From Eledone cirrhosa (Eukaryota): a DNA stretch of 64,000 nt. This document shows, piece by piece, positions 1,210-54,722 of this stretch (positions are counted from its first letter, which is position 1; the number at the start of each line of letters is the position of its first letter). The notes under the pieces were generated by a model. It was given only the letters and a program-made list of their open reading frames with translations, was not told the DNA's origin and did no database searches. The stretch spans positions 55,800,001 through 55,864,000 of the forward strand of contig OZ024747.1 of NCBI GenBank assembly GCA_964016885.1. Reading direction: 5' to 3'. The position numbers were made by a program, and so were the translations under genes.

Positions 1210-1413
1210 ATAGGAAAATGTTTGACCCTGACGGCAGAGCTCAAGCTGTTTCAACGGGTATTTCTGGACTAAATTTAGTCCAGAAATAGCCATCAAAACG
1301 GCTTGAGCTCTGCCGTCGGGGTCAAACATTTTCCTATTACCCACTCTACTACCCTAAGTATTGAGTACTCTGGTGCGTTATGGTCAATCTGGTTCCTTAC
1401 CACACTTCCTTCG

Positions 1414-1415
<2 letters not shown>
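1210..1415 (+). mobile_element. Short fold-back element (64-bp inverted arms plus ~78-nt tail), probably a PLE 3'-end derivative
   Basis: 1210-1273 is the imperfect reverse complement of 1274-1337. A unique tail then runs into (TA)n. A homolog lies in the opposite orientation at 16825-17033. Confidence 0.65.
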
Positions 1416-1447
<32 letters not shown>

Positions 1448-3292
1448 TCCTTGCTAGCAGGGAAAATGGACATTAAATGATGTTGGTGGTTATGATGATG
1501 TAAATATTTACCCTGTGTATTTTGTATTTGGAATGCAAAAGCTGTGAGTTGCTCCTGTGTGTTTTGTTATGTTTTGTATTACAGAGAATCAGTTCTCTGA
1601 AGTAGAACTGATCTGGACTGTTGAACAACAACAATAACTACAACAACTAACATACAATCATATATAATGAATACAATAGTGATATATAAGTGTGATTAGG
1701 CTGTTGTTTCAATTAAGTGAATACTTGATTAAAAAGCCAATCAGATAGGGTATTTTTTATCCAATATTAATAATTACCACAACCTCGAAAACTGATTAAT
1801 ATTTTAATTACTTGTGTTTTGTTTCCTGTTCTTTGGTTTATTGTGTCCATTCCAGCAGATAGCTCTACCTTAACCCTTTCATCAATAGATTTAGGTTTTT
1901 CGTGTGGCTTTATTCTCTTCTCACTGCAGATAGTGTTCTACACAAACATATACTGCTGTAACTATTACAAAATAAATAAAAAAAATATTATTGATATCAA
2001 CCATAGCATGATGATCATCATCATCCAGCTGCTTTCCATGTTGGCATGGGTTGGAGGGGTTGTCACAGTTCTAGACTAAACTGGTTAGAGAGACCTCATC
2101 TTGCTCAAATGTTCCATATTTGGCATAGATTCTACAACTAGATGCTCTTTCTAATACCAATCACCTTACAGAGTGTATTGAATACATTTTATTATAGAAA
2201 CAGCACTATTACTTTACAGTGTACTGGCTGCATGTTATCATAGTACCATCATGAGATAGGCTTTTATATGCTTGCTCAGAGTGGAGTGTTCTCTGAATCT
2301 TTACATTCTATCCTTTCAACTACCATCCACCTTATAGAGTGTACTGGGTTTATTTTATAAGATCCAAAGCACATGAAAGCAACAATGGTTTCTAATTTAG
2401 TTATAGGACCAACAATTTGAGGAGAGATGAAAGTCAAACAAACATCAGTACTTGATTGGTACTTGATCTTACTGACTCCAGAAGAATGAAAGTAAAGTTG
2501 ACCTCAGCAGGATTTGAATTCAGAATATGAAAAAAAAAAAATAGATCAAATACTGCAGGACATTTTGTCCAATATCACTAATAACTCTGATAACCAACAA
2601 CAGCCACAAGAACAAAAACAACAGCAGTAAGAACAAATGTGATAAATCAATTAAAGCAACAACAACAATAACAATATTACTGGTCAATGAAAGAAACATT
2701 TTATGGCCACTGGAAAAAGCAGCTAAATTTCCCTCAAATTTTACCATGCCATTTTTGAAAAGGGCATGTTGGAAATGGAATCCTGAGTTAGTTATATATA
2801 GGAAAAGGTGGGATGGTCATGCCAAGAAATGCCTTTGACTATAGGTCTGCTTGGTTTGAGCTGACCAGCAACGACAACAGAAGTTAACAAAGGAATACAA
2901 GTGATTACTTGATCTGCTAGAAATAGCAACTGTATTTCCCTTTGTAGAAAAGAGAGGTCACCAGTTTATGACTGGATGAATGTCATCCCAGTTCCAAGTA
3001 TTGTTAAGCAACTGAGAGTGCAATACTTTTCCTTTTGATGGGCTCCAAGTATCTAGTAAGGTTAAACTTCAGTTACTACTGGTACTCATTTTTACCACAA
3101 GAACTGGAACAAGAAAAATTTGAATTGTTTTTCCCAAGGAAATAAACTGCTTACAACTGTGCTACTACCATCATTACCACAAAGCTATGGGCCTTCATTC
3201 TCTGGGTTCACTGCTAGCAAGAAAAGGATGTTCATGTGATAGCCATGGTTACAATGCCTTTGATGTTAGATCTACTCAATCAATATTGACAT

Positions 3293-3609
3293 CAGGGTTG
3301 GATTTAGATTTTAGGGAGCCCAGGGCACTTCAGGTTTGGGTGTGGCCCCTGATACACAAAACATTAGAATACACAGCAAAGCCTCCCAATTTTACATATC
3401 AAAGTTAGCTTGGCACAAGTAATTAGGACCTAAAAGTTAAACATACAGGTATAAAATTCAAAAATTCTAACTATCCTAAAACTAAAAAGCTCAGCTGAGG
3501 GCACAAATAAATTGTTATAGCTATTGCTGGTGCCCCCCACCCGTCACCCCACCACATTGACCTGGGGCAAATTCCTCTTTTGCCCCCCCCCCCCTTAAAA
3601 CCAGCCTTG
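3293..3609. mobile_element. hAT-type MITE
   Basis: Imperfect TIRs CAGGGTTGGATTTA / TAAAACCAGCCTTG. Flanked by a near-identical 8-bp TSD, ATTGACAT (3285-3292) and GTTGACAT (3610-3617). It interrupts one copy of the ~180-bp repeat. Confidence 0.7.
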
Positions 3610-3884
3610 GTTGACATAGGGCTAAAAAAACAATAGCCAATAAAAGAGCCTATATATGGTCACATGACCTATGAGATATAGCAGCCAAGTCTTCCCCAAA
3701 TTACGCCATACTGTCCTTGAAAAGAACATGTTAGATAATGTGGTCCTAGTTTTATTGTACATAGGATGATGACAAAATAAGCATGGTCAAAATACCTTGG
3801 ATGATTGGATATGCTCAATCAGGACTAATTCAGGGCTAAATAACAGCATTCAATGAAAGGGAATTTATATAGTCATTGACTACT

Positions 3885-4497
3885 AGAGAACTTCAAGTAT
3901 ATCGGGGCCATATTCTAGAGTGATGGAAGGCAAGAGGCTGAATTAAGTGCAAGAATTCCAGGAGCTGGTGCAGTAATGTGCCAGCTTCAGCATTCAGAAA
4001 TTAGAAAAAAGGGAGGTAGGTGTAAAAGCCAAACTTGCTATCTTCAATTCAGTATTCGTGCCACCCTTACCTATGGTCATGAATCTAGACTGAAAAATAC
4101 GATCGAATACAAGCGACTGAAATGGGGTTCCTCTTAAGGGTCTAAGGGGTAATGTTACTCAATAAAGTGTGTAGCTCAGAGATCAGAGAGTCACTCCAGG
4201 TAGAGCCACTCTTCTCTGAATTGAGAGATCACAGCTTCGATATTACGGGCATGTGGTAAGAATGTCTCAGGAAAGAATCGTTGGACAGATTTTACAGGTA
4301 ACACTAACCAGCAGAAGGTCCAGTTGTAGACCTCAAGCAAGATGGTTGGATAACATCCATGTGCTTTACTGATCTTGCTTGGAGATCCGGCAGGATCTGT
4401 TGGAGACAGTTGTTTCTGATAGGGCCCGGTAGAAGGAGTATTTGAAGACTCTGCCCCCACGACCATCTCAGGAATAAGTGGGTGAAGAAGAAAAAGA
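3885..4497 (+). pseudogene. Degraded 3' fragment of an RTE LINE (Expander-like)
   Basis: Broken frames read ENFKYIGAIF*SDGRQEAELSARI..GAGAVM, KAKLAIFNSVFVP and VEPLLL*IERSQLRYYGHVVRM, matching the RTE ORF C-terminal region. It ends in a GAA-rich tail. Confidence 0.75.
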
Positions 4498-5970
4498 GAC
4501 TACTAGAAATAACAGCCCAATGTCCTCTAAATCACATCCTACTTTCATAGAAAATGAGACAAGATGTGGCCCTAGGTTACACACATACGGTCAAAAGTTG
4601 GGAGGACCATTGACGGAATTCATTTGACCATAATTCTACATAACATGGACCTGAAACTAAACAACACTACCAAATAAATGCCTATATATGCTATTTCAAA
4701 TCACTAGAAATAGTAGCCAAACCTCCCTCAAATCGCCCTAAAAGCCTGGAAAAACACATTGGTATAGAGTGATAGTGTTTTCCAGGGTTGGAATGGATCT
4801 GATTATAGATATACTTGATAAGGGATGACCTGGGGCTAAACAATAACAATAATAAAAGCAAGATAAACAATAACAATAACAAGGACAATATCATACAAAA
4901 ATAAATAAATGAAGTTGCAAAATTGATTTGAAAAATAGGAATAACCATAATCCCAATCATCACTATCACCATCAACAGCATTATTATCATCATCATTATC
5001 ATCGTCATCAGTAACATCATTCTCATAATCATCATCACAACTGCCGCCACCAACACAACACCCCTACCACATCACCACTAACAATAATACCACCACCAAC
5101 CCAACACAATACCACCAGCAGCAGCAACAGACTACTACCACCATCACTACCACACCAAGAACACAATACCACCACCACTAACACAACATTAGTACACCAC
5201 CACCACCAGCAACACCAACTACTATTACCCCCACCACCATTCCACTTCTCCTAACACACTCTATTCTAATGAAATCATTAGCTCCTTCTCCAATCCAACC
5301 ACTTTCCCCCCTTTTCCCTATCCATAATACATGTAAATATACCATCAAAGAAATGGAGTTTTCAATTATTCAATCCCACCACATAAAAAACACCCATCCT
5401 ACACCACCTCCACCACCTCCACCACCACAACCTGCTTCAATAAGTCAGCATTGGAACCTCTATATGGTTGCTTGAAATGCTAGAAATAGAAACCAACCCA
5501 TTGAATGTTGTATTCCAGAGATCCCTATACACAGGAGAAAGTTGGAGTGGTCATAGCTAGAATAGCTTTGATCATTAGTCTTCTTAAGCAATTTGACCCA
5601 GGGCTAAACAACATCAATCTTTCTGTCTCCATCACTCCTCTCTATCTTACATGTTCATCATCCTTTCACTCTAATTTTCTATACTTGCATTGGTTGGACG
5701 ATTACTCTTCAGCACAGTTTCCCCTCCTCCTGTTGGTTTCATTTGTCAACTCTTCTGTGAATTCAGTGTTTTGAGATCCACTCTTCTCACTTTTGTGCCC
5801 AGGGCTTCTTTAATCTTTCTCTACTGCAGCATCCTTTAACCGGGAATTACCCTTATATATATATAGAGAGAGAGAGAGGTAGAACACTGGAAGGTAATAT
5901 CCGTAGTGGTAGAGCACTCAGTCCATGGGACGAGTTTGGTAGAAGTAGTAACACAACAGTTAGTTCACCA

Positions 5971-6010
5971 TACCGAGAACAATTGTTTCACCTTTCATCT
6001 TCAGCTCGTA
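5971..6010 (-). ncRNA. Minimal hammerhead ribozyme motif (type I, PLE-type)
   Basis: Minus strand reads TACGAG-CTGAAGA-TGAAAGGT-GAAA-CAATTG-TT-CTCGGTA. Stem I is CGAG/CTCG and stem III is the palindrome ACAATTGT. Stem II is poorly formed. Confidence 0.5.
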
Positions 6011-6033
6011 CTAGTCATGGTTATACTTGATCA

Positions 6034-6110
6034 CATATCTGATAAGATATCGAAGAAGATTAGGGCCCCGTTATCTTGAGCAGATTGTTATTGAAACAAT
6101 TGTAATTTGC
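6034..6110 (+). ncRNA. Degenerate hammerhead motif, same family as the 59771 copy
   Basis: CTGATAA (6039-6045, a variant of CTGATGA) ... GAAA-CAATTG-TA (6093-6104). The downstream CATATGCTGCAACACT is shared with 59868-59883. Confidence 0.45.
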
Positions 6111-6291
6111 AAATTAAGTTATATACATATGCTGCAACACTGACTCCAATTCTTTTAAATAGCTCTCACTCTCTCTCTCTCTCGGTAAGGTGGCTGTGTA
6201 GGAGACATGGTAAAAAGGCTCCCAGTCCACACTGTAAATGTGGTTAGTGTTAGGACCATCTAATCCATGCTAGCGTTGAAGATGGATGTTA

Positions 6292-6600
6292 AACGATGAT
6301 GATGATGATGATGAAATGGTTCAGGTCCCCGACGACTGAGCTCCGACCATTTCGACAGCTAGATCTAACGATGATGATGATGATGATGATGAAATGGTTC
6401 AGGTCCCCGACGACTGAACTCTGACCATTTCGACAGCTAGATCTAACGATGATGATGATGATGATGGTGAAATGGTTCAGGTCCCCAACGACTGAGCTCC
6501 AGCCATTTCGACAGCTAGATCTAACGATGATGATGATGATGATGATGAAATGGTTCAGGTCCCCAACAACTGAGCTCCAACCATTTCGACAGCTAGATCT
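6292..6600. repeat. Four tandem ~80-bp units of AAC(GAT)n plus a ~52-bp PLE-end-like sequence
   Basis: The unit AACGATGATGAT..GAAATGGTTCAGGTCCCCGACGACTGAGCTCCGACCATTTCGACAGCTAGATCT is repeated four times. Confidence 0.9.
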
Positions 6601-6886
6601 GAACTCCTAATTAGTAAGTCGTAACTGTCAGGGTTGACGATATAACATTTCCAGTTTTATCTGAATGTACAAGAATGTCATTGGTGCTTCTGTACTCTGA
6701 TATTTTGTTACGGAGTTGTCGGTCTCAAGTGGCGATAGCAATGGGTTTGGTTGAGGATATTTCTAGGTGTTAAATCGATCCGTATCCTTAAAGTTATGTC
6801 CTGTATATCATGGTATCTAGCATAGAAGAAGGTTCTCCATCTGAATCGTTTCACGAAAGTGTCGATTTTTCTGAGTAAGAGTCTTT
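6601..6886 (-). pseudogene. Degraded N-terminal fragment of a Naiad-like PLE ORF
   Basis: Minus strand reads RLLLRKIDTFVKRFRWRTFFY and STNDILVHSDKTGNV. These match LLIEKTDSFVRRLRWTAYFY and SSKNVLVHSDKTNNL in the 50071-51972 ORF. Confidence 0.75.
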
Positions 6887-6900
6887 ATATATATATATAT

Positions 6901-7163
6901 CATCATCATCATCATCACCGTTTTACGTCCGTTCTTCCATGCTAGCATGGGTTAGATGGGTTGTCCTGATGTGGGCAGTGTCCAGTTGGCTGATCTTGCC
7001 TTGCTCATCCGGGAACTGATTCCGGCTTGATTTCTACAGCTGGATGCCCTTCCTAACACCAACCTCATTTACAGTGAGTGTTGGGTGCTTTTTTTCTGTG
7101 GCGCCTACACGTCCACTTTACAGTGTGGGCTGGGTGCTTTTTTTGCCGTGGCACCTCCACGAC

Positions 7164-7165
<2 letters not shown>
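6901..7165 (-). mobile_element. RTE 3' UTR fragment with (GAT)n tail
   Basis: Homologous to the 3' UTR at 44737-45000 and to 24395-24720. It is flanked by (TA)n. Confidence 0.8.
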
Positions 7166-7220
<55 letters not shown>

Positions 7221-7974
7221 CAACAATCGATCAACTTTCATTAAATCGGATTGAGGAAACAATGTTTCTGTTGGTCTTTCCAATTGCTAATACTATCTAT
7301 TGGCTGCAACTCTAGGTAGAAGGACATGATGCAACGGTCAATCCAGGAATCAAACTCACAATTGCAAATCCAATTCTCTAACCACTCAGCCACGCAACTT
7401 CACCAAATAAATATATATATAATGTCACACCTCCATCTTGCATACAACATTCTCAGCTCTGTAGTTGACTTCACCCTAGATTTTGTAGGGTTAATCCATG
7501 AGTCACTTGCTAGTCTTTACAATGTATATTGTATATTCATAAGAAAAAAATGTCTGACTTATATACATGCATATATAATCTGTGTATATGTGTATATGTG
7601 TGTGTGAGTGTGTGTGTAATTGAAGGTGTGTGCTTTAGTGGCTAGAGTGTTCGGCTCATGATCGAAAGGTTATGGGTTCTGTTCCAAATTATGCATTATG
7701 ATTTTATGCAAGACACTATTTCACATGGCTGCAGTTCATTAAGCTAGCGAAAATAAGTTGTAGCTGTAATTTAGGGGCCCACCCATGTCACACCCTCTGT
7801 CACACTGAATCTCCCTGAGAATTATATTAAGAGTATACATGGTTCTGGAATGGTCAGCCACTTTGATTTTAATTTCATGAGCAGGCTGTTCCATTGATTG
7901 TATCTACAGAAACACTCATCGTCAGAACCAACGAATATCCAACAAAGTGCGGGTTCATGCACATGCAAACACAT

Positions 7975-8005
<31 letters not shown>

Positions 8006-8448
8006 TACACACATACATACATGCATACACATTCGCACAAATACACACACATACATGCATCCACACACACATTTGCACACATACATACACACACATACAA
8101 AAACATACATGCACACATACACACGCCCATACACACATACATATACACATACATACATAGACACATACACCCACAGATCCACATATAGACTTACACACAT
8201 ACATATACACAGTGAGTGTTCAAAGGTGAGATGTTAATATTGATAAGCTTCTTTATTATTTATACATATTGTAAGTTCAAACTGATTTGGAGTTGTTTGA
8301 AGCGATTAAGCTATTTTTTGCCATCAGTTTTATGTTTTTTGATCATGTGAGCATGGGTTGGGAGTATTTAGGGGGCTTCTGCTGGTTTCATGAAGTATAA
8401 AGCAATCAAAGGTACAAGTCATCTGAAACTTAACCTTCATCTATTTCT

Positions 8449-9440
8449 GCAGTAGTAATAGTAGTAGTAGTAGTAGTTATTGTAGTTGTAGTTGTAGTAG
8501 TAGTTATAGTACTAGTAGTAATAGTTATAGTAGTAGTAGTAATAGTTATAGTAGTAGTAGTAATAGTTATAGTAGTAGTAGTAATAGTAGTAGTAGTAGT
8601 AGTTATAGTAGTAGTAGTAGTAGTTATAGTAGTAGTAGTTATAGTAGTAGTAGTTATAGTACTAGTAGTAGTTATAGTAGTAGTAGTTATAGTACTAGTA
8701 GTAGTAGTTATAGTACTAGTAGTAGTAGTTATAGTACTAGTAGTAGTAGTTATAGTACCAGTAGTAGTAGTTATAGTACTAGTAGTAGTAGTTATAGTAC
8801 TAGTAGTAGTAGTTATAGTACTAGTAGTAGTAGTAATAATACTAGTAGTAGTAGTAGTAATAATACTAGTAGTAGTAATAATACTAGTAGTAGTAGTAGT
8901 AATAATACTAGTAGTAGTAATAATACTAGTAGTAGTAGTAGTAATAATACTAGTAGTAGTAGTAGTAATAATACTAGTAGTAGTAGTAGTAATAATACTA
9001 GTAGTAGTAGTAGTAATAATACTAGTAGTAGTAGTAGTAGTAATACTAGTAGTAGTAGTAGTAATAATACTAGTAGTAGTAGTAGTAGTAATACTAGTAG
9101 TAGTAGTAGTAGTAATACTAGTAGTAGTAGTAGTAGTAATACTAGTAGTAGTACTAGTAGTAGTAGTAGTAGTAGTAGTAATACTAGTAGTAATACTAGT
9201 ACTAGTACTAGTAGTAGTAGTAATACTAGTAGTAGTACTAGTAGTAGTAATACTAGTAGTAGTACTAGTAGTAATAATACTAGTAGTAGTAGTAGTAGTA
9301 ATACTAGTAGTAGTAGTAGTAGTAATACTAGTAGTAGTACTAGTAGTAGTAGTAATACTAGTAGTAGTACTAGTAGTAGTAGTAATACTAGTAGTAGTAC
9401 TAGTAGTAGTAGTAATACTAGTAGTAGTCCTAGTAGTAGC
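8449..9440. repeat. ~1-kb (TAG)n / (ACT)n compound microsatellite
   Basis: Continuous AGT/TAG repeats with AAT/ACT variants. This explains the 350-aa poly-Thr ORF. Confidence 0.95.
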
Positions 9441-9969
9441 AGGAGTGGTTTGTAGCAATGTGAAATAAAGTACTTTTCTCAAGGTCTCAACTTATTATTT
9501 GATCAAACAGTTGATTTTACAATCATAGGAAATAACACCCTAATCATTAGGCAATGCACCTTCATTAAAGGTGTTATTCCAGCTATGACCACCCCAACTT
9601 TCCCCTGTGTGTAGGGTTCCAGGAATACAACATTCAATAGGTTGGTTTTTATATCTGGAGTAGTAATGGGGGTGGGTAGGGGCAATGTGAAATAATGTAC
9701 TTTGTTCAAGGACTCAACATATTCCTTGATCAAACACTTGATGTTATAATTGTGGGAATCACACCCTAATCATTAGGCAATGTACCTTCAGCAAAGTTAT
9801 TATTATGATATTTAATGATGTTTTGAGCTCTCTTAAATTGGAGGTAGTGCATGACTTGTGTGATATGTTGAAATTTCTTGATCTCAGATTCAGCAGGTAG
9901 GTCTATGATAAAAAGAAATTCAGTTGTGACCATTCTGTATATTTTATATATACATGCATGCATGCCCTC

Positions 9970-10238
9970 GTGTGCTACAAGCTAGCACGTTGAGCCAGTG
10001 CTTATCCCGGTTTCATGGCATGAAGTTACTGAGAATACAAAACTTCCCCCTGGATGCCTGCCTGCTCATCACAGGGTTAACACCTGAGTTATTGCTGGTA
10101 CTCATTTTCATCTGAGTATATTGCTGGAATGTGAATTGAAGTGTTTTTCTCAAGAACACAACATGCAACCCAGCCCAGGAATTGAACCCACAACATTACG
10201 ATCATAAATCCAACAACCTTACCACTAGGCCATGTGCC
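9970..10238 (-). mobile_element. tRNA-derived SINE with CORE-like central domain
   Basis: Minus strand shows box A TGGCCTAGTGG and box B GGGTTCAATTCC, then GTGTTCTTGAGAAAAACACTT..CTCAGATGAAAATGAG. Confidence 0.65.
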
Positions 10239-10924: not shown

Positions 10925-11050
10925 TGCCATTCTGAGTTCAAATACTGCCGAGGTTAACTTTGCCTTTCATCCTTACAGGGTCGATAAAATAAAGTACCAG
11001 TAATGCACTGGGTAATTGCTGGCCTTGTGCCAAGAGTAGAAACAATTATT
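10925..11050 (+). mobile_element. SINE fragment of the second SINE family
   Basis: GAGTTCAAAT..GCCGAGGTTAACTTTGCCTTTCATCCTTACAGGGTCGATAAAATAAAGTACCAG..TGGCCTTGTGCC..AGAAACAATTATT. Further copies lie near 20535, 36140-36770, 37010, 39810-40140, 55560 and 59185. Confidence 0.7.
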
Positions 11051-11801: not shown

Positions 11802-11841
<40 letters not shown>

Positions 11842-16824: not shown

Positions 16825-17033
16825 AACGAAGGAAATGTGGTAAGGAACCAGGTGGACCATAACGCACCAAAGTACTCAATACTTGGGGTAGTAGTGTGGG
16901 TAATAGGAACCAGTAAGACCCCGACGGCTGAGCTCAAGCCGTTTCGACGGCTAATTCTGGACTCCAGAATTAGCCATCGAATTAGCCGTCGAGACGGCTT
17001 GAGCTCAGCCGTCGGGGTCTTACTGGTTCCTAT
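16825..17033 (-). mobile_element. Short fold-back element, same family as 1210-1415
   Basis: Arms are 16903-16961 and 16963-17033, with a 12-bp duplication in the right arm. The tail 16825-16902 is homologous to the reverse complement of 1338-1415. It is embedded in (TA)n. Confidence 0.7.
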
Positions 17034-19247: not shown

Positions 19248-19250
19248 TAT

Positions 19251-24170: not shown

Positions 24171-24394
24171 GGCATATCTACCTATTTATCTATTTAGTCA
24201 AATAGTTATGCATGTTGTCTGAGAAAAAAATAAAATTATAGAACATGGAATACAGCAGAGAAGATCTACTGACAAAAATCAACAAAAAAATGCAAACAGA
24301 AATGTACAAAAAAAAAATGTATACTCTAATACAGAACTAATACATTAGTATGTAACATTATAATTTTGCATACATATATATATATATATTTATA

Positions 24395-41413: not shown

Positions 41414-41450
<37 letters not shown>

Positions 41451-41451
<1 letters not shown>

Positions 41452-42108
41452 CATAAAAGAGAAAACACAGGTAAGCATTAAGAGAAGGATTTTATCCAGG
41501 TATTTACGACCGTTTCATTGGTAAGTGCAACCTTATATTGCTATACTGCAAATAGCAGCCACTCAATTATAATTGTTGTTCACAGTCCAAATTTTCAAAA
41601 TAGTAAGTTACTCTTGAAATAATTTTTAATATATAGAGAAAAACATTTATTTGGAATTGTATTTACTAGTATATAGAGAGAGGAATCAGAAGGTGAGGGG
41701 GACAAACGGAATAGTATAGAGAGAGAGGAAGGGGGAAGAGGTAGGAAGTAGAGTGACAAACTGTATGGAGGGAGGGGTGGAGGTAGAAGGATTCCTTGGT
41801 CAGTTTTGATAGCAGACTTCATGTCGTGGAATGTAGTGAGTTAAAGAGAATTAAATTGATCATAGTGGGAGGGATGGATAGAGAGGGAGAGAGAGGGGGG
41901 AGATATAAAGAGATCAATGTATATATATTGTTATATTTGGGGAGGGTCATATTTGCGTAATATTGCCAGAATTAATAACAGAACACACTCACTGTTTGGT
42001 TGGTTTTCGCTTCTCGCTGTCTTTTATATATATATATCTGCGATCTAACTTACTCGGTCCTCAATGTTGCCATTGACTGACCGGCGGTCAAAAAACCTCG
42101 CAAAACTA

Positions 42109-42156
<48 letters not shown>

Positions 42157-44710
42157 AAGATAAAGATAATAATGACAAAAATAAAAGCAAAGAAGGGGGT
42201 GAGAAAGAAGAAAAGAAAAGATAGCCAAGAAGGGGAGGGAAGGAAGGAAGAAAACGAAGAAATAGAAGAGGGATGAGGGAGAAGAGGGGGATATATGTAT
42301 TGATTTTGTGGGTAATTAAAAGGGTTTAGATACAACAAAAGGGTATAAAGTCTAAGTATATGCAGTTTGTCAGTTGGTAGTAAGAGGTTAAGGGTTCGAT
42401 TTGTAGTGCGAAAACTTCTCTTTGAGTCTATGGTTACAATAAATAGATCTTTCGATTTTATTGTTGTGTAACTTATTCTTCGAACTTAAGATGTGGAACA
42501 GCTCAAGGTCGCATAACCGACAGCTTCTCATACCACTCCGATATGGGGCCGCGTTCGATAATTTTTTTCCACTTCAGGGTGTATTGATGGTTACTTTCCC
42601 TCAGTTGCCAGGTCTTGTTTGCAAGGGTAGTTACATAACGGTGCTGGGAATGTTTCATTGCGTAACGGTGTGTATACCAACGGGCTTTAAATGTATTCCC
42701 AGTCGCTCCGATGTAATACCATTTCTGGTTGTCTGATCCCACTGTACATTGGTAAACCAGGTTAGACTGCATACATTCATTATGTAATGGACAGGTTTCA
42801 GGTAGGTGGCAGTTACAGTTCTTGTCATGGGCAACTTTGGCATTATTTGTGGGCTGCGATGCCTGTACTAGTGTGTTACGTTTTGTTTGCCTATTAGCGG
42901 GTGGCTGTGTATTAGATATTATGTTGTGTTCGGTGGTGATTGTATTGTTATTGTTGTAAATTTGTGTTTTGGTGTTGTTATGTATCTTTTTAGCATTAAG
43001 CATCTTAATGTGTGCCTCTATATTTGGTGCCATGGAGTAAGATAGTCTAATAGATTTAGTATTAAGGATTTTGCTGTATCTATGTGAATCTGGAAAGTGC
43101 TTATTTATTATTCTAAAGAGGGTAGAGGGTAGGTTAGTACTAATAGAGGTGTTAAATATGGGGTTATACCAAATATATTTTCTACTGCGTGACTTGTTTG
43201 ATTTCGATGTTGTATTTCTATTTGCCGTATATTTTGCAGTTCTATGCGTAAGTGCGTGTGTGCGTGTGTTACCGGAGTTTGTGTTATGCGTGTTCGTGTG
43301 CGCTTCACGGAGGCTTTCATCTATATATTCTACTCTATCTAAGTGGCCTGCCTTGTCTAATGCGGTATTGTAGTATTCTGCATGTTCTTCGAAGATTTGT
43401 TGGTTAGACGAGAGGCGGGAGATCCTAAGGGATATGCTGCGTGGAATGGATTTAATTGTGGATAGTGGGTGGTTTGAGTTACAGTTGATGTATGCTAAGT
43501 TTTCATTAATCTTGTGAAAAGGTCTTTAGGTTAAGCGTCACGTCTAGAAAGTTAACTAGCTAAGTTAACTAGGCCTAGTTTTCCTAGTTTTCTTTCTAAT
43601 ATCCTTACGGAGTCTTTCTATGCTCTGGTTATTTAGGTTCTTAACTAGGAGAAGGGCGTCGTCTCTGTAGATTCCACCGTGAAGGTTGCTAAACTCACTT
43701 TGTAAACTATGGGCTATGTAAATACCTACTAAATCTGTGACTTGAGCCGAGTCGTTAGCCCCATCGTGATGTCAAAGTTATTTAATCTATCCTTACGTTC
43801 CCAATAGGCGTTTTCAAATTTAATTATTGTTTTCCTAGCAGCTAATATGATTTTTATCTCGTCGTCTGTTATGTCAGAATTGGCTTTGGCGAATGCTAAG
43901 GCTTTATCCAAGGTCTTGGGGGATATAGATGAGTAATAATCGTTAATGTCAAATTGTATAAATTTAGATGCTTCTTTGTTAGCTATATTGTTAAACCACT
44001 TAATTGTTTCGGTAGCGTTACCCCATAGTTTAATCACTAGTTTATTATTCATTTGTGCTATCACTCTGTCTAATATATGTTTACTAATTTTCCCGTTGTC
44101 CGATTTGGACGGGCATATAAGTCTAATTGTGGGGTTATAATCAAAATTTACCTTGTGGTCCTTGAGGTTAAATGTGGGTGTACATGGCCTAAGTGGCTCC
44201 GTTCTGTCGTCTATTCCTAGGTGTTTGACTATATTGTGTGCCTCGTTGTTGATGTTTATCAATGCCGCCTCATTAGTTATTTTGTATTTCCTATGTAATT
44301 CCTTCCGTATGAAGCTATTGTATGTATTAACATCCATCGTATACACATTTGATGTTTTGTCCGCTTTGACAATAATTCCATTGGTGGTTCGCAGCTTTTT
44401 TAGGAACGTATTTATGTCATTCTGGAGTTTATTATTCCTCCGCTTTTTGAATTTGATATTCATAATCATCTTCAGTAAGTCCTGTTCAAAGGTATCCAGT
44501 TGAGGGTTGGTAGGTGGGTTCTTACACGATTTGAAGCCGTATGTTTCCTTGTTGTATTCCACGGTGCGACCATTACGTCCTTTGTCGAAATGGAAAGTTT
44601 TCCATCTAACTCTGCGTATAAAGTCGTTTGTTCGCTGTATCATCCCGAGAGTATAATGGCTTTTTTAACCAAGAACTAGATCACAATAAGCAATTTTTGG
44701 CTTCTCTAAC
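41451..44710 (-). mobile_element. Naiad-like PLE, near full length but frameshifted
   Basis: ORF 43729-44643 has FIRRVRWKTF, KADKT, LKDHK..RLICPSKSD and FIQFDINDYY. GGIYRDD lies at about 43655-43680. ORF 42503-43033 has NCNC-x5-CP-x4-C, LVYQC..YYIGATGNTFKARW (GIY-YIG). Assigning 41451-42150 to the same element is uncertain. Confidence 0.85.
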
Positions 44711-44736
44711 TATATATATATATATATATATTTATA

Positions 44737-45995: not shown

Positions 45996-45999
45996 ATCC

Positions 46000-46426
46000 G
46001 AACTGCAGAGACTAATGTTTCTAGGTATCACCCTTCATCAGTACAGCTCACTGTTCACCTGCCTACTGTCAGAGCGAGTGAAAATATATGCTATTTTCTA
46101 AAATATACAGTAACTGATCGGCCTAATTTGCATATTAGTAGAGTGGCAGATCAGTCAGATCTGCATATTAGCAGATCCACTGATCAGCCTGATTTGCATA
46201 TCAGCAGACTGGCCCATCTGTTTCCTGTATACAAGCGATAAATGGGCGGCTTTGTCACATTCAAATAAAAATATGCAAATGACTGATCAGCCAGTCTGCT
46301 AATATGCAAATCAGGCCGATCAGTCACAGTATATTTTACAAAATAGCATATATTTTCACTAGCTCTGACAGTTGGCAGGTGAACAGTGAGCTGGGTGATA
46401 CCCAGAAACATTAGTGTCTGTAGTTC
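46000..46426. mobile_element. Palindromic MITE-like element with ~150-bp inverted arms
   Basis: 46000-46157 is approximately the reverse complement of 46279-46426. Internal subrepeats CTGATCAGCCTGATTTGCATATxAGCAGA are present. No TSD was seen. Confidence 0.7.
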
Positions 46427-46576: not shown

Positions 46577-48190
46577 ATGTAGTGATAATATATCGTTACG
46601 TTAGAGATGAACAGCGTACGTGCAGGTTTGCTCAACGAGTATAAATTATATTCCGGAGAAAATGTAGAAAGGATGAATATAAAATGAAAGTGCTTTTGTT
46701 AAAAAAGGAATTTATTAGGTATTGACATATGTTATGCAATAAACACAATAATAGTCGCACACTACCAAACAGAAGGCGATGTAAGGAGTATATTTGGTAC
46801 AACCCGGTCTATAACAACTCTATTAAAACCAATCTACCCTCAAAATTCTTTCGATTAGTTAAAACACACTTTCCAACATCACATAAATATAATAAAATCT
46901 TAAACCCTAACACTATTCGACTTTCATATTCAACCGCCCCTAATATTGAACAACATATAAAAAAGCTTAACGCAAAACGGTTGTATAAACGCCTTCCAAC
47001 ACATAACAATACACGTAAAACATTAGCTATAACATCACAAAACAACAAACAACGTCCTGTCCTACATAAGCAACCTCATCAACCCATCCATGGCAATACA
47101 ACAACGCAAAATTATAATTGCAACTGTGTCCAACCAGGAATGTGTCCGTTGAACAATCAGTGTCTTGAACGCAACATCGTATACAAATGTACTATCGAAT
47201 CGGATAGACAGAAGTGGTACTATGTGGGATCTACAGCCACCTCCTTCAAATCACGCCTTTATAGACATCGTTACTCGATAAAACATGAAAACCAGCGTTA
47301 TGTAACAACACTCGCAGACAAGGCTTGGCAGCTGCGTGAAAATAACCAACAATTTCACCTAAAATGGGATATAATAGTGGCTGCCCCCCCATATACCCAT
47401 GGACAGGATTTTGTAAATTATGTAATGTAGAATTATTTTGTATTATGAAATCCAAAAACATTTTATTAAATAACAGAATAGAGCGATCGTTATACTGTAA
47501 CCATCGCTTAAAATCTACATTTTCATATTATAAATACTACCAGGATTGAACGCCTGTCTCTATCCCAGTTTGATTGTCAAAATAGATATTAACATTCTTT
47601 ATTAGTCTTAATTCTATCAACTCTTCTATTATTTACCTTTTAATACAAACTGCTATAGATAAAATGAGATTTCTGATTTCTTGATTCAATTCCCTAATGC
47701 ATATACCAGCTGGCTACTAGCATTGATGTTATTTAGTAGCAATCGAAATCTCCCCCTTCCCCAATTGACACTTTATAATTAATACTACTGCACCAAATGA
47801 CCAGCCCTGTCCACTGTCCAGTTGGTCAAGTAGAGATTAAAATTGGCACTCCCAAAATTCTTATTTAGATTTACTCATGGTATTCTCATTAGAAACCCAT
47901 TATATACTTGTTTAGCAGTAAATTAATTTACCATCTGTCATATACTATCCCCTCTGTTCCTTCCTCTTTTACTAATATAAATACTTCAATTTTTCTGATT
48001 TTATCCAATTTATCCAAAATCTCTGAAGAAGTGACAACTGATTATACATTTGCTATCGAATACTTGCTAACATTATATGATTACGCAAGCAGCGATACAT
48101 AGGTATTCGGTCTGTTACAGAAACATATGTCAATACCTAATAAATTCCTTTTTTAACAAAAGCACTTTCATTTTATATTCATCCTTTCTC
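46577..48190 (+). mobile_element. 5'-truncated Naiad-like PLE with an inverted tail-bearing terminal copy
   Basis: ORF 46729-47430 has IWYNP, NCNC-x5-CP-x4-C and IVYKC..YYVGSTATSFKSRL. ORF 47364-47549 has CKLC..CNHR in another frame. 46667-46732 is the reverse complement of 48123-48188. Confidence 0.85.
48023..48138 (+). ncRNA. Hammerhead-like motif with long stem II in the PLE 3' end
   Basis: CTGAAGA (48023), a ~90-nt hairpin closed by GTGACAACTG/CGGTCTGTTAC, then GAAA-CATATG-TC (48120-48131). Stem III is the palindrome ACATATGT. Stem I is poor. Confidence 0.5.
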
Positions 48191-48393: not shown

Positions 48394-48430
<37 letters not shown>

Positions 48431-48554
48431 GTAGGAGGTGAGTTTTATTGTAGTACAATAAAGCAATGCAGATATCGGATAAGAAGCACTCTACAGTTTG
48501 TAGGACTGGAGTATACATAATATAAGATCAAAAGATGGTTAAAGGAGTTCCATG

Positions 48555-48625
48555 TATTTTATTATGCGCATTTCAAAAACAAACATCATCATGCAATAAT
48601 ATTTGTGTTTTCATCAGATAAAACA
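48555..48625 (-). ncRNA. Hammerhead ribozyme (left-arm copy)
   Basis: Reverse complement of the 54573-54643 motif, with TCATCAG at 48611-48617. Confidence 0.8.
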
Positions 48626-50070
48626 GGAGAACATGATATGAAGGCTAAAAGACACTTGTGGATAGTGCAGTTTTAAATCAACATATGAAAAGTGGTTTTA
48701 GATTGATGTGTGATATTGGGAAAAATATTTTATTTAGAGAGGGGTGGGGGTGGGGGTGGGGGGTGGAAAGGATGAAAAAGGGGAGGAGATGAGAGGGACA
48801 GATGGGTGATAGAGAGAAAGAGATAGTTTTTATAACTGAGAGGAGATATATTGTTTTACATAGAGAGGTTGAAAACCGTTGGAAGATAATGTATAAATTA
48901 AAAGAATTTGAAAATTAACTAAGGGAGGATATGTGCGAGGAAAAAATATTTTATTTAGGGAGGGGGGTGGAAAGGATGAAAAAAGGGGGAGGAGATGAAA
49001 GTGAAGGTGGAGAGGGAGAGATGGGTGATAGAGAGAAAGAGATAGTTTTTATAACTGAGAAAAAGATATATTGTTTTATATAGAGAGGTTGAGAACCGTT
49101 GGAAGATAATGTATAAATTAAAGGAATTTGAAAATTAACGAAGGGAATTTATGTATGAAGATAGAGAGAAAAAATAATAATTGTGGATGAATATTCTAAC
49201 GTCAAAAAAAGTGTATGTTGATAAGTATTGTGGCAATTTCAAAATTAACGAAGAGAAAAATTATTAAGGTTTGTGTGTAGAAGGATTTGAGAAAAATAAT
49301 GTGAAGTTAAAGTTTGTATATTGAAGGAATTGATAATATATGCGACTAAAGAGTTAATATGTATTAAGAATGAGTTCGTTGATGGGGAGAAAAAAATAAT
49401 AAATTAAGGATAAAATTGAGATTAAAAAGATTTATGATAGAGAGAAAAAATAATAATGATTGCGGATGAATATTCTAACGTCAAAAAAACAAATGTATAT
49501 GTTATGAAGGATTTTACAAGGTGAAGATAGAATGAGGGTAATGAGTAAACAAGTATTATAGAGTGTATAATACCCTTTAAAGTAAGGTAGGAAGATGGGT
49601 ATATTTTAAAGAGGTGTATGTATATGTGCCTTTGAGAAAAGATTCTAAATTGATAAAGAATTGAATATTAACTGTATACTTTGTGAAAAGTCCTATGGAA
49701 TTTATGCAGGCAGATAGAAAACAAATCTGTACGTCTATTTATTATAGAATCTAGGTTAGAGATAATGGTAAATTTTTCATTTAGGCAGAGATTAAAGATT
49801 TTAGAATAGAGAGCTGTTCGAGTATGAGGATGCAGAAGAAACCTTCTTCCAAAAGATGGTATATTTAATGTTTTTGTCTTTTAAGGACCATATGAGTTCT
49901 GAGAGAGCAGTGTTGGTTCTTTTAAGTTTGTATTTGAAAGATGAATGATGATTATAGAGACGAGCTTTAAAAGAGGTGGAAGTGGAGCCAAAATAGGCGA
50001 AGGAATTGGTGCTAGTTATAATTTTACATTCATAAATTAAGTTTTTATCGAGACAATGGTTGTTGAGAGG

Positions 50071-51972
50071 TCATTTATTTTTAATGCGGCAGTTGCAATT
50101 AGAGAGATTATTAATGAGTGACCTAGTGTTATCTATAGAAGGAATTGGATTGGAGAAGTTGTTTGCGATAGGAATAATAGTTTCTTGATTTAGAGTTGGA
50201 TTATGAACATTTAGCGAAGTTGTGTTTGACGTTGTATTTGGGTTTACAGAAGTTAGCCTAGGGTTTACAATGACGTCGGGAGTACTATTACTGTTATTAT
50301 GAAATTCAATATTGGAAGGAAGAGATTTAGTATTTAGTATTTTATTGTTGTGTTTAGAGATGATGTTGGAAATATTGGAGGATGTAGAATAAGAAAATTT
50401 GATGGTGGGTTTGTTAAATATTTTACTATAGATATGTGAGGGAGGGAAGCATTTATTTAAGGCACTAAAAAATAATTTAGGAATATTGTTATTAATAGAG
50501 ATGGAGAAAGGAGCATTATACCAGATTATGTTTTTGTATCTAGGTCTTTTATTAAAATTATTGGAATGATCATGATTAATTATTCTACTGTAAGTTTTTC
50601 TAGAATTTGTTTCTTTACTATATTTGATTTTATCTGGATAGCCGGCTTTAGAAAGTGCGTTATTATAGTAATTGGCGTTAGCATCAAAGATGTTTTTATT
50701 AGAAGATATGTTAGATATTCTTTTTCCAATATTACTAACTATAGCATTCTTGATATTGGTAGGATGGTTAGATTTAAAGTTAACATAATTTAGGTTCTCA
50801 TTGTTTTTATGGTAAGGGTAATATAGGCCAGTGTCAAGATTAAGAGATACATCCAAGAAATTAGCTAGTTTGATACTATTATCAAATTCAATTTTTAGGT
50901 TATGTTGGTTAAAGAGATTACGTATATTGTTCTTAATAATATTAAGGTTAACTATATTGCAATTTAGGATAGTAAAAAGTCCATCGTCACGATAAATTCC
51001 ACCGCGAAGTTGAGGAATTTTCCGACTCAAAGAGTTCAAAATGAAGATACCAATTAAATCAGTCAATTGGGATGAATCGGATGCTCCCATTGTGATGTCG
51101 AAGTTGTTAGAGGTATCGGCTCTGGTCCAATATTCGTTGTTGAACTCTAGGATGGTTTTACGTGCGGTGAGGATGATGTGAAGTTCATCTGTGGTGATGT
51201 CAGAATATTTAAGTGCGAAAGATAGAGCATTATTGAGAAGTGAAGGCTCCTTAACGGTTGAGCGTTTACTAACAACCCCCAGATCAGATTTAGAGGGGGC
51301 GATTAATCTAACAGGTAGTTCAGTGCGAAAATTGTTTCTGTGATCCTTGAGATTTATCCTCGGAGTTCTTGGGAGGAATGGTTCGGTCTTTTTTTCAATG
51401 CCAAGTTTTGACATAATCTCAGAGGCTTCAAGGTTTATGTATTCTAAATTTTCATGGTTGGTTTTACGATACTTTTTCCTAAGTTCCTTTAGGATAAGGT
51501 TGTTATAATTATCCTTGGAAATACCATATAAGTTATTGGTTTTGTCAGAGTGGACTAAAACATTTTTTGAGGAATTTAGGTTAGAGATTGTGTTCTTGAG
51601 ATTTACAAGGTGCTCTTGTCCTTTGTAAGGGTATCTCTTGAATTTAAGATTTTTTATTATTTTAGTTAATTCTTCCTCGAATTGTACTAGATTTTTGTTG
51701 GAAGGAGGATTTCGTCTAGAATTAAAAAGATGATCGAGGAAGTTATGTTCTTTGGTATGGAAGTTCCCTTTTAGGCGCTGGTCATAGAAATAGGCTGTCC
51801 ATCTAAGTCTTCTTACGAAGGAGTCAGTTTTTTCAATAAGAAGTTTGGTGAATTCAGATTTACCAGGTATAGGAATGTCTTTAGTTGAATTGGTTATGTT
51901 GTAATAATCCATGTTGTAGAAGAAGAGGTGAAGGACCATCAAAAGGTATCCAATATGAGAGTAAGCGCTCAA
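50071..51972 (-). pseudogene. PLE ORF, left arm: N-terminus plus RT lacking motif A, stopped by TGA in the zinc finger
   Basis: STKDIPIP..FVRRLRW, HSDKT and RLIAPSKSDLGVVSK are joined directly to RSTVKEPSLL. About 50 aa including FDIxxxY are missing relative to ORF 43729-44643. GGIYRDD is present. The likely start is the ATG of MDYY near 51912. Confidence 0.85.
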
Positions 51973-53570
51973 CCGTTAAGGAGCCTTCACTTCTCAATAA
52001 TGCTCTATCTTTCGCACTTAAATATTCTGACATCACCACAGATGAACTTCACATCATCCTCACCGCACGTAAAACCATCCTAGAGTTCAACAACGAATAT
52101 TGGACCAGAGCCGATACCTCTAACAACTTCGACATCACAATGGGAGCATCCGATTCATCCCAATTGACTGATTTAATTGGTATCTTCATTTTGAACTCTT
52201 TGAGTCGGAAAATTCCTCAACTTCGCGGTGGAATTTATCGTGACGATGGACTCTTTACTATCCTAAATTGCAATATAGTTAACCTTAATATTATTAAGAA
52301 CAATATACGTAATCTCTTTAACCAACATAACCTAAAAATTGAATTTGATAATAGTATCAAACTAGCTAATTTCTTGGATGTATCTCTTAATCTTGACACT
52401 GGCCTATATTACCCTTACCATAAAAACAATGAGAACCTAAATTATGTTAACTTTAAATCTAACCATCCTACCAATATCAAGAATGCTATAGTTAGTAATA
52501 TTGGAAAAAGAATATCTAACATATCTTCTAATAAAAACATCTTTGATGCTAACGCCAATTACTATAATAACGCACTTTCTAAAGCCGGCTATCCAGATAA
52601 AATCAAATATAGTAAAGAAACAAATTCTAGAAAAACTTACAGTAGAATAATTAATCATGATCATTCCAATAATTTTAATAAAAGACCTAGATACAAAAAC
52701 ATAATCTGGTATAATGCTCCTTTCTCCATCTCTATTAATAACAATATTCCTAAATTATTTTTTAGTGCCTTAAATAAATGCTTCCCTCCCTCACATATAT
52801 ATAGTAAAATATTTAACAAACACACCATCAAATTTTCTTATTCTACATCCTCCAATATTTCCAACATCATCTCTAAACACAACAATAAAATACTAAATAC
52901 TAAATCTCTTCCTTCCAATATTGAATTTCATAATAACAGTAATAGTACTCCCGACGTCATTGTAAACCCTAGGCTAACTTCTGTAAACCAAAATACAACG
53001 TCAAACACAACTTCGCTAAATATTCATAATCCAACTCTAAATCAAGAAACTATTATTCCTATTATTCCTATCGCAAACAACTTCTCCAATCCAATTCCTT
53101 CTATAGATAACACTAGGTCACTCATTAATAATCTCTCTAATTGCAACTGCCGCATTAAAAATAAATGTCCTCTCAACAACCATTGTCTCGATAAAAACTT
53201 AATTTATGAATGTAAAATTATAACTAGCACCAATTCCTTCACCTATTTTGGCTCCACTTCCACCTCTTTTAAAGCTCGTCTCTATAATCATCATTCATCT
53301 TTCAAATACAAACTTAAAAGAACCAACACTGCTCTCTCAGAACTCATATGGTCCTTAAAAGACAAAAACATTAAATATACCATCTTTTGGAAGAAGGTTT
53401 CTTCTGCATCCTCATACTTGAACAGCTCTCTATCTAAAATCTGTAATCTCTGCCTAAATGAAAAATTTGCCATTATCTCTAACCTAGATTCTATAATAAA
53501 TAGACGTACAGATTTGTTTTCTATCTGCCTGCATAAATTCCATAGGACTTTTCACAAAGTATACAGTTAA
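51966..53570 (+). CDS. PLE ORF, right arm: C-terminal RT, zinc finger and GIY-YIG endonuclease (5'-truncated, open frame)
   Basis: FDITMGA, GGIYRDD, NFLDV, SNHP, IIWYNAPF, NCNCRIKNKCPLNNHC, LIYEC..YFGSTSTSFKARLYNH, CNLCLNEK and CLH. Confidence 0.85.
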   Translation, partial: RSTVKEPSLLNNALSFALKYSDITTDELHIILTARKTILEFNNEYWTRADTSNNFDITMGASDSSQLTDLIGIFILNSLSRKIPQLRGGIYRDDGLFTILNCNIVNLNIIKNNIRNLFNQHNLKIEFDNSIKLANFLDVSLNLDTGLYYPYHKNNENLNYVNFKSNHPTNIKNAIVSNIGKRISNISSNKNIFDANANYYNNALSKAGYPDKIKYSKETNSRKTYSRIINHDHSNNFNKRPRYKNIIWYNAPFSISINNNIPKLFFSALNKCFPPSHIYSKIFNKHTIKFSYSTSSNISNIISKHNNKILNTKSLPSNIEFHNNSNSTPDVIVNPRLTSVNQNTTSNTTSLNIHNPTLNQETIIPIIPIANNFSNPIPSIDNTRSLINNLSNCNCRIKNKCPLNNHCLDKNLIYECKIITSTNSFTYFGSTSTSFKARLYNHHSSFKYKLKRTNTALSELIWSLKDKNIKYTIFWKKVSSASSYLNSSLSKICNLCLNEKFAIISNLDSIINRRTDLFSICLHKFHRTFHKVYS

Positions 53571-54572
53571 TATTCAATTCTTTATCAATTTAGAATCTTC
53601 TCTCAAAGGCACATATACATACACCTCTTTAAAATATACCCATCTTCCTACCTTACTTGTTTACTCATTACCCTCATTCTATCTTCACCTTGTAAAATCC
53701 TTCATAACATATACATTTGTTTTTTTGACGTTAGAATATTCATCCGCAATCATTATTATTTTTTCTCTCTATCATAAATCTTTTTAATCTCAATTTCATC
53801 CTTAATTTATTATTTTGTTCTCCCCATCAACGAACTCATTCTTAATACATATTAACTCTTTATTCGCATATATTATCAATTCCTTCAATATACAAACTAT
53901 ACAAACTTCACATTATTTTTCTCAAATCCTTCTACACACAAACCTTAATAATTTTTCTCTTCGTTAATTTTGAAATTGCCACAATACTTATCAACATACA
54001 CTTTTTTTGACGTTAGAATATTCATCCACAATTATTATTTTTTCTCTTATCTTCATACATAAATTCCCTTCGTTAATTTTCAAATTCCTTTAATTTATAC
54101 ATTATCTTCCAACGGTTCTCAACCTCTCTATGTAAAACAATATATCTTTTTCTCAGTTATAAAAACTATCTCTTTCTCTCTATCACCCATCTCTCCCTCT
54201 CCACCTTCACTCTCATCTCCTCCCCCTTTTTTCATCCTTTCCACCCCCCCCCTCCCTAAATAAAATATTTTTTCCTCGCACATATCCTCCCTTAGTTAAT
54301 TTTCAAATTCTTTTAATTTATACATTATCTTCCAACGGTTTTCAACCTCTCTATGTAAAACAATATATCTCCTCTCAGTTATAAAAACTATCTCTTTCTC
54401 TCTATCACCCATCTGTCCCTCTCATCTCCTCCCCTTTTTCATCCTTTCCACCCCGCCCTCTCTAAATAAAATATTTTTCCCAATATCACACATCAATCTA
54501 AAACACTTTTCATATGTTGATTTAAAACTGCACTATCCACAAGTGTTTTTTAGCCTTCATATCATGTTCTCC

Positions 54573-54643
54573 TGTTTTATCTGATGAAAACACAAATATT
54601 ATTGCATGATGATGTTTGTTTTTGAAATGCGCATAATAAAATA
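54573..54643 (+). ncRNA. Hammerhead ribozyme, type I, with palindromic stem III
   Basis: Stem I is TGTTTTAT/ATAAAATA and the core is CTGATGA (54581-54587). Stem II is AAACACAAATATTAT/ATGATGTTTGTTTTT, followed by GAAA (54624-54627). Stem III is ATGCGCAT, with an AUA cleavage triplet ending at 54635. Confidence 0.85.
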
Positions 54644-54673
54644 CATGGAACTCCTTTAACCATCTTTTGATCT

Positions 54674-54722
<49 letters not shown>

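What the first reader, a model, noticed from the sequence alone, without database searches (positions are those of the whole stretch)
1210..54681. One rule at several scales: PLE insertions are head-to-head pairs of a tailed arm and a tail-less arm in (TA)n
Seen at four loci: 1210-1415, 16825-17033, 46577-48190 and 48428-54681. At each, two 3' ends point outward into (TA)n. One arm continues ~80-90 nt past the point where the other stops, and that point lies a few tens of nt after a GAAA hammerhead-type motif. Either arm can be the longer one: at 46.6 kb the tailed arm is ~155 bp and the tail-less arm ~1.45 kb. Two tails from different families end alike (CACTACATT and CCTACATT, then TA repeat). 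Inference: two distinct priming events, one per target strand, start from two defined RNA positions at a palindromic (TA)n site. This extends the known pLTR-plus-tail organisation of Penelope into a testable mechanism.
Basis: partly seen in the sequence, partly recalled or inferred. Interest (0 to 1): 0.8.

Follow-up and report, generated by a model that had tools for sequence, protein, structure and literature searches.

The report
One-tailed twin-primed Penelope insertions
These are back-to-back insertions of Penelope-like jumping genes in TA repeats; across this genome about 97% of such pairs carry the extra end piece on exactly one arm, which likely means both cut DNA strands prime copying of the same RNA at two fixed sites, a sharper and testable form of a layout already described.

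Summary
Observation confirmed. They belong to four Penelope-like families; the intact ORF of one meets the Hydra-clade motifs. Genome-wide, family A gives 5,005 one-tailed pairs against 76 both-tailed and at most 97 untailed (independence predicts about 172); family C gives 422 against at most 14 both-tailed. The layout (inverted truncated copy, one-sided tail) and two internal priming sites bounding the tail are published, and this scan noted the one-tail rule in another genome. Not found in my searches: arms of either kind stop at one nucleotide with promoter signs and often an extra G (cap-like); both arms share source variants; the tailed arm is often only a piece of the tail; junctions are symmetric more often than chance. 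This excludes simple fold-back for many insertions and favours fixed-site twin priming on one RNA (0.55) over two RNAs on a dimer (0.3). No RNA data or empty sites were available.

The parts
1212..1275 (-). Family A tail-less arm (locus 1); ends 5 nt beyond the family's usual stop
1272..1415 (+). Family A tailed arm (locus 1); 3' half of hammerhead, tail 1336-1415
16825..16963 (-). Family A tailed arm (locus 2); tail 16825-16904; stops at the candidate start site, next base reads G on the arm's strand
16964..16978 (.). 15-nt filler, a partial direct duplicate of the arm start
16979..17031 (+). Family A tail-less arm (locus 2)
41450..44656 (-).
44657..44711 (+). Family D inverted tailed arm made of the last 55 nt of the 133-nt tail only
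46577..46733 (-). Family B short tailed arm (locus 3); tail 46577-46665, minority tail end
46736..48189 (+). Family B long tail-less arm: end of ORF (GIY-YIG part), 3' UTR, pseudo-LTR
47976..48007 (+). Candidate core promoter of family B: TATAAAT at 47976, candidate start A at 48007, 31 nt apart (predicted)
48023..48131 (+). Hammerhead-type motif of family B: CTGAAGA, long stem II, GAAAC, GTC; stem I weak
48428..51985 (-). Family C near full-length tailed arm (locus 4); tail 48428-48518; lacks about 168 nt of the RT region present in other copies
51960..54679 (+). Family C tail-less arm: rest of RT, linker, GIY-YIG, 3' UTR, pseudo-LTR
51960..51985 (.). Junction of locus 4, on a 25-nt stretch repeated inverted at 51245-51269
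54512..54512 (+). Family C pile-up point of arm 5' ends (-167), candidate transcription start (predicted)
54581..54641 (+). Complete type I hammerhead motif of family C (CTGATGA, stem II, GAAA, stem III, ATA, stem I)
   Evidence: core consensus recalled

Best explanation
These are insertions of Hydra-type Penelope-like retroelements in which, likely, both nicked strands of a (TA)n target prime reverse transcription on one sense RNA, one at the far end of the tail and one at the tail boundary. Shown in DNA: one tail per pair, either arm longer, same source variants in both arms, a hard inner stop in families A and C. Inferred: the two sites are internal, TA-rich positions flanking the tail and occur twice per transcript (5' and 3' pseudo-LTR). 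Priming in the 5' copy gives short cDNAs that run off at the capped RNA start, the thousands of 200-430-nt hairpin copies. Priming in the 3' copy gives long arms. The tail-primed cDNA either stalls in or near the tail, where the other enzyme already sits, or displaces the other cDNA and goes on, so arms overlap. The two cDNA ends are joined head to head by short homology, filler bases or a U-turn of one enzyme onto the other cDNA; host repair fills in.
For: One-tailed 5,005 vs both 76 vs neither at most 97; odds about 850-fold over independence. Family C 422 vs at most 14. Sampled pairs, counted by eye: A 61 of 63 resolved, B 30 of 30, C 39 of 41-42, D 18 of 18 plus 2 with tail fragments. Tailed arm ends inside or within 12 nt of the tail boundary while the other arm is longer: C at +78, +38, +34, +9, 0, -6, -9, -12; A at +56 to +30 in 7 loci. 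Family A arm ends: 121 of 288 fall at -60 to -58; base outside an arm ending at -59 is G in 22 of 33 with filler vs 22 of 90 non-T bases at other ends (p 3e-5); family C G in 10 of 22 by eye (p 0.03). TATA-like word 31 nt upstream and initiator-like word at the stop in A and B. Family B arms differ 0.2-1.1% within pairs (2.5% in one older pair) vs 1.6-2.6% (6.5%) between; 14 of 14 pairs share minor variants. Junctions symmetric within 20 nt, away from the start site, in 5 of 24 vs 0.68 shuffled (p 1.4e-4). In vitro precedent for two-strand nicking, two start sites and a predicted dimer; extra G and twin priming in L1.
Against: Long overlapping arms (up to about 2 kb in B, 2.7 kb at locus 4) need long strand displacement, not shown for any Penelope enzyme. 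Some pairs join arms of different subfamilies, so two RNAs are sometimes used: L071 among 52 one-tailed, L126, L130, L135, L153 among 47 both-tailed. Both-tailed pairs also mostly share variants (37 of 47 within 1 edit, vs 40 of 52 one-tailed and 23% of random pairs), so sharing does not separate one RNA from two RNAs of one locus. In vitro the start site did not differ between strands. Locus 1 ends 5 nt past the candidate start. Family C has no TATA at -31; family B has only a loose cluster at -178 to -189. Locus 4 also fits fold-back. About a sixth of family-A copies are single-armed or unresolved.
Confidence: 0.55

Rival explanations
1. An enzyme dimer holds two RNA molecules, usually from the same source locus; each subunit primes one target strand, and an asymmetry in the complex makes one subunit use the tail end and the other the tail boundary.
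For: No strand displacement needed for long overlapping arms; mixed-subfamily pairs exist; a dimer is predicted for the anole protein; both arms can carry the extra G (L068); both-tailed pairs share rare variants.
Against: Gives no reason for the tailed arm to stop in or at the tail boundary, for junction symmetry at arbitrary positions, or for strict one-tail use when both sites are free on each RNA.
Confidence: 0.3
2. One priming event at the tail end; the cDNA folds back on itself and is copied as DNA up to the tail boundary, where it is joined to the other target end (akin to the self-priming proposed by Arkhipova et al. 2013).
For: Identical variants in both arms; palindromic junctions (AATT at locus 1); the 25-nt inverted repeat at locus 4; symmetric junctions.
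Against: The copied arm cannot reach further than its template, yet the tail-less arm is much the longer at loci 3 and 5, in 6 of 30 family-B pairs and in many A and C pairs, some with no overlap. Extra G on tail-less arms and on both arms. It may still finish some junctions as a U-turn step.
Confidence: 0.08
3. The short hairpin copies are a non-autonomous, MITE-like family copied as whole units from a few masters, so the one-tail rule is inherited, not remade each time.
For: Thousands of copies of similar length; a few junctions recur.
Against: Junctions differ from copy to copy (144 pairs); a recurrent junction occurs with the tail on either arm and in several subfamilies; long young family-B pairs with unique junctions obey the same rule.
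Confidence: 0.05
4. Two independent insertions land in the same TA run and look like a pair, or later gene conversion makes the arms alike.
For: Nested insertions of different families in one TA run are common (L055, L214, L320); conversion may explain part of the arm similarity and the odd interior of locus 4.
Against: No TA run between the arms; independent events would not give 97% one-tailed pairs.
Confidence: 0.03

Closest known systems
Canonical endonuclease-bearing Penelope-like insertion unit (Craig et al. 2021, PMC8557442, Fig. 2 legend; Arkhipova et al. 2013, PMC3846280; Schostak et al. 2008, PMC2377424)
   Same: Inverted 5'-truncated copy joined head to head, partial tandems forming pseudo-LTRs, tail often at one end only, hammerhead in the pseudo-LTR, transcription start within it.
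   Different: Tail here is 80-133 nt and lies before the ATG (family B ATG at +157), against 30-40 nt reaching into the ORF. The one-tail rule is counted here. Those papers explain the tail by endonuclease resolution or the inversion by self-priming on an antisense template; the data here point to two primings on a sense RNA.
Poseidon element of Anolis in vitro (Frangieh et al. 2024, PMC11167929)
   Same: Both strands nicked and extended, AT-rich target, two internal start sites bounding the tail, uncleaved RNA as template, predicted dimer.
   Different: That work saw no difference in start site between strands and does not, in the main text I read, derive the inverted arm or the one-tail rule; it assumes ordinary second-strand synthesis. 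Different clade.
Hydra clade of Penelope-like elements (Craig et al. 2021, section 11)
   Same: RWK, DKT, CxCx5C linker, CxxC and CxH motifs, no CCHH, C-terminal GIY-YIG, (TA)n target, hammerhead.
   Different: Described from about two dozen families, mostly cnidarian, under 3 kb. Here four families with 633 to 15,117 exact core hits each in one 3-Gb genome; units of 3.1 kb and more.
Twin priming of L1 (Ostertag and Kazazian 2001, not held; seen through passages of PMC11702581)
   Same: Second target end primes internally on the RNA; 3' ends point outward; junction microhomology; extra G at full-length 5' ends.
   Different: In L1 the second site is variable and the two pieces barely overlap; here it is one fixed site, used in most insertions, and arms often overlap by tens to thousands of bases.

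Membership tests
Penelope-like element, C-terminal endonuclease | Single ORF with RT followed by GIY-YIG endonuclease | tested here: met
   Unbroken 772-aa ORF in L341 with YRDD and YVGST, and a like one in L343; identified by motifs, since Pfam and PDB sequence searches gave no relevant hit
Penelope-like element, C-terminal endonuclease | Pseudo-LTRs from partial tandems, adjacent inverted copy, optional tail | tested here: met
   L338-L342 show inverted arm plus partial tandem with 3,116-nt unit
Penelope-like element, C-terminal endonuclease | Hammerhead motif in the pseudo-LTR | tested here: met
   Complete in C; core with long stem II and weak stem I in B; variant core in long A copies; 5' core not found in D. 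Rfam listed no hammerhead in the window
Hydra clade | RWK, DKT, CxCx5C, CxxC, CxH; CCHH absent | tested here: met
   All found in family B; family C has RWT, DKT and the three Cys motifs. A and D checked only in part
Hydra clade | Insertion into (TA)n | tested here: met
   All five window insertions and most sampled loci
Hydra clade | Placement with named Hydra RTs in a tree | not tested
   No reference proteins were fetched
L1-type twin priming | Two non-overlapping pieces of one RNA, variable internal priming site | tested here: not met
   Second site is fixed and arms usually overlap; works like it only in geometry
L1-type twin priming | Both cDNAs from one RNA molecule | tested here: inconclusive
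   Same source shown; same molecule only inferred
MITE (non-autonomous DNA transposon) | Uniform unit with equal terminal inverted repeats copied whole | tested here: not met
   Variable junctions, one-sided tail, continuity with RT-coding copies
Active hammerhead ribozyme | Self-cleavage | not testable with these tools
   Most arms read across the predicted cut, so templates were mostly uncut

The most novel reading that the evidence does not exclude
Penelope-like elements integrate by programmed twin priming: one RNA, clamped by its tail, is reverse transcribed twice from two fixed sites by a dimer, one start per target strand, so the inverted arm replaces ordinary second-strand initiation. 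The abundant short hairpin copies are cap run-off products of the 5' copy of the same signal, and their inner ends map each family's transcription start.
Probability: 0.45. Interest if true: 0.7.

Novelty: new variant of a known kind. Interest (0 to 1): 0.47.

Why it matters
How Penelope-like elements make their tandem and inverted insertions is named as an open question by Craig et al. 2021, and the one in vitro study leaves the steps after first-strand synthesis untested. The genome counts show that the two start sites are not chosen independently, which any model must explain, and they give a direct mixing experiment with an intact protein that this genome supplies. They also explain tens of thousands of small hairpin repeats as by-products of one mechanism and not as MITEs or microRNA-like genes, and show a very large expansion of a little-known clade.

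Tried and rejected
Rfam scan of the window: only weak microsatellite-driven microRNA matches, no hammerhead. Pfam and PDB sequence searches with the ORFs: nothing relevant. Sequencing runs: no RNA holder listed. Contigs of four runs laid on locus 1: none spans the site, no empty allele could be read. The element at 41.4-44.7 kb first looked single-armed; rejected once the family-D tail was known. Idea that both-tailed pairs come from two RNAs and one-tailed pairs from one: 4 of 47 vs 1 of 52 clear subfamily mismatches, too few to claim. Shared tail structure or sequence across families: folds are weak, alignment shows only short words. Alike tail ends as a shared signal: not supported in family B. 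Arms ending at the hammerhead cut: about 13 of the 100 listed very short family-A pairs, by eye, and L339; a hint only. Three family-A arm ends at -23 were deletions between short direct repeats, not stops. Supplements: Frangieh's three text files held none of my terms, and its figures are not held, so Fig. S2 may bear on novelty; Craig's supplement was searched by term only.
Full report
Observation. The four loci are as described: two arms of one family joined at their 5' ends, 3' ends facing outward into TA runs, one arm with an extra 80-91 nt. A fifth insertion at 41450-44711 follows the same plan with a tailed arm of only 55 nt. Positions below count from the tail boundary (0), tail positive.

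Identity. The window lies in a 3.0-Gb genome. Loci 1 and 2 (family A) are truncated ends of a coding element: longer copies carry the end of a GIY-YIG ORF. Exact core words occur 15,117 times for A, 633 for B (46.6 kb), 14,563 for C (48.4-54.7 kb) and 1,299 for D (41.4-44.7 kb); these are hits, not insertions. Family B has unbroken 772-aa ORFs with RWK, DKT, YRDD, CxCx5C, YVGST, CxxC and CxH and no CCHH, the features Craig et al. 2021 list for the Hydra clade, which also targets (TA)n (section read whole). No tree was built. Pfam and PDB searches were blank.

The one-tail rule. Gapped patterns spanning both outer ends of short family-A pairs gave 5,005 one-tailed, 76 both-tailed and 97 untailed matches. 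The last includes satellite matches (4 of the 15 loci fetched, L110-L113, and others), and one listed both-tailed match joins two neighbouring elements. Independent choice of start would give 172 one-tailed for those flanks; the odds ratio is about 850. Family C gave 422 one-tailed and 14 both-tailed, one of which (L259) is really one-tailed; the untailed class was not counted genome-wide, but independence would need about 3,180 and none was seen among 41-42 sampled pairs. Samples taken by core word, tallied by eye: A, 90 of the first 100 listed hits, 76 insertions, 61 one-tailed, 1 both, 1 neither, 13 single or unresolved; C, 39 one-tailed, 2-3 both, 0 neither, about 10 single; B, 30 of 30 pairs, about 16 single or unresolved; D, 18 of 18 pairs, 2 more with tail fragments, 1 unresolved. 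Most B and D pairs beyond the first 30 hits were picked because both strands had a hit, which does not favour a tail state.

Two RNA-primed events. The tailed arm is often only part of the tail while the tail-less arm is longer: A at +56, +39, +36, +36, +33, +32, +30; C at +78, +38, +34, +9, 0, and just past the boundary at -6, -9, -12. A fold-back copy cannot exceed its template or gain a tail, so fold-back fails for these. The sites are internal: tandem copies continue past the tail into the body, and both sites share 1-4 bases with the TA run. In family B the ATG is at +157, so the tail is non-coding.

A hard inner stop. In 144 short family-A pairs, 121 of 288 arm ends fall at -60 to -58 (the set mixes all samples, and one subfamily is mis-scored at -49). 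The A at -59 sits in an initiator-like word with TATTTAT 31 nt upstream; family B has TATAAAT 31 nt upstream of an A at -182, near which several arms end; family C piles at -167 without a clear TATA (promoter consensus recalled). Where filler separates the arms, the base outside an A arm ending at -59 is G in 22 of 33, against 22 of 90 non-T bases at other ends (p 3e-5); C gives 10 of 22 by eye (p 0.03). An extra G marks the copied cap in full-length L1 insertions (PMC11702581, passages). I infer that arms of both kinds run off the capped 5' end of a sense RNA after priming in the 5' pseudo-LTR. No RNA data could test this.

One source, perhaps one molecule. Family-B arms are closer within pairs than between and share minor variants in 14 of 14 pairs. 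Family-A arms match within one edit at a subfamily-marking stretch in 40 of 52 one-tailed pairs against 23% of random pairs, but so do 37 of 47 both-tailed pairs, and five pairs mix subfamilies. Away from the start site, both arms end within 20 nt of each other in 5 of 24 pairs against 0.68 in shuffles. Stalls at the boundary and symmetric ends favour one RNA; long overlaps and mixed pairs favour two.

Hammerheads. C has a complete type I motif downstream of its start; B a core with a long stem II; long A copies have a core reading TTGA(A/C)AA in 9 of 11 listed, upstream of the start, so short A copies hold only the 3' half; no 5' core was found in D. Most arms cross the predicted cut, as in the anole element, where cleavage was dispensable.

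What is known. Craig 2021 (outline, passages, section 11, supplement by term): inverted truncated copy and a 30-40-bp tail often at one end. Arkhipova 2013 (passages): head-to-head most frequent, self-priming on an antisense template proposed. Schostak 2008 (passages): internal promoter and inverted repeats in Drosophila. Frangieh 2024 (parts 1-3 of 4 read): both strands nicked and extended, two internal starts bounding the tail, no strand difference. A 2026 retrozyme preprint (passages) did not bear on the tail. Searches for a twin-priming, cap or structural account of these insertions found none in the held library, which lacks most subscription journals. Earlier notes of this scan report the one-tail rule and the arms' stop near the ribozyme in other genomes; they are unchecked and add no support.

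Verdict. Real, general in this genome, and mostly an instance of a described layout. The added value is the size of the coordination, the start-site run-off with extra G, the tail-only arms and the Hydra-clade expansion, which together turn a vague layout into a one-RNA versus two-RNA test. New variant of a known kind; interest 0.47.

Noticed in passing
L003, L007, L024, L025, L031, L038, L171, L181, about -105 to -95 of family A: The hammerhead core reads TTGA(A/C)AA: both partners of the usual C3-G8 pair are changed, to U and A (numbering recalled). L026 and L027 differ again.
   Followed up: partly
window 51245-51269 and 51960-51985: The tailed arm of locus 4 lacks about 168 nt of RT found in other copies, replaced by an inverted copy of the element's 5' leader; the arm junction sits on the same stretch. 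Could be a defective source, later conversion or misassembly.
   Followed up: partly
window 12478-15506, 17300-19248, 28464-31418, 44740-46000: Several copies of a LINE with AP endonuclease and RT (1,116-aa frame at 27734-31084), 97-98% alike, ending in (CAT)n/(ATG)n next to TA runs; one lies beside locus 2 and a relative beside the fifth insertion.
   Followed up: no
window 46000-46426: A 430-nt imperfect palindrome (74%) unrelated to the Penelope families, just left of locus 3.
   Followed up: no
window 36599-36753, 24316-24802, 55741-55891: Further inverted-repeat structures; the last flanks a TA-rich core.
   Followed up: no
L339 (G000:C1:57217500-57221900), about 416-564: Short tailed arm ends at the predicted hammerhead cut (-58); with about 13 of 100 very short family-A pairs this hints at a minor class copied from cleaved RNA.
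   Followed up: partly
L037, L179, L238, L276: Poly(T) or poly(A) filler at the inner end or junction of some copies, as if another polyadenylated RNA had been copied there.
   Followed up: no
L055, L214, L225, L311, L320, L371: Different Penelope families nest in one another's flanking TA runs, building clusters like window 46.5-54.7 kb.
   Followed up: no
window 48760-49160 and 54050-54485: Family C 3' UTR holds 110-220-nt internal direct repeats whose number differs among subfamilies.
   Followed up: no
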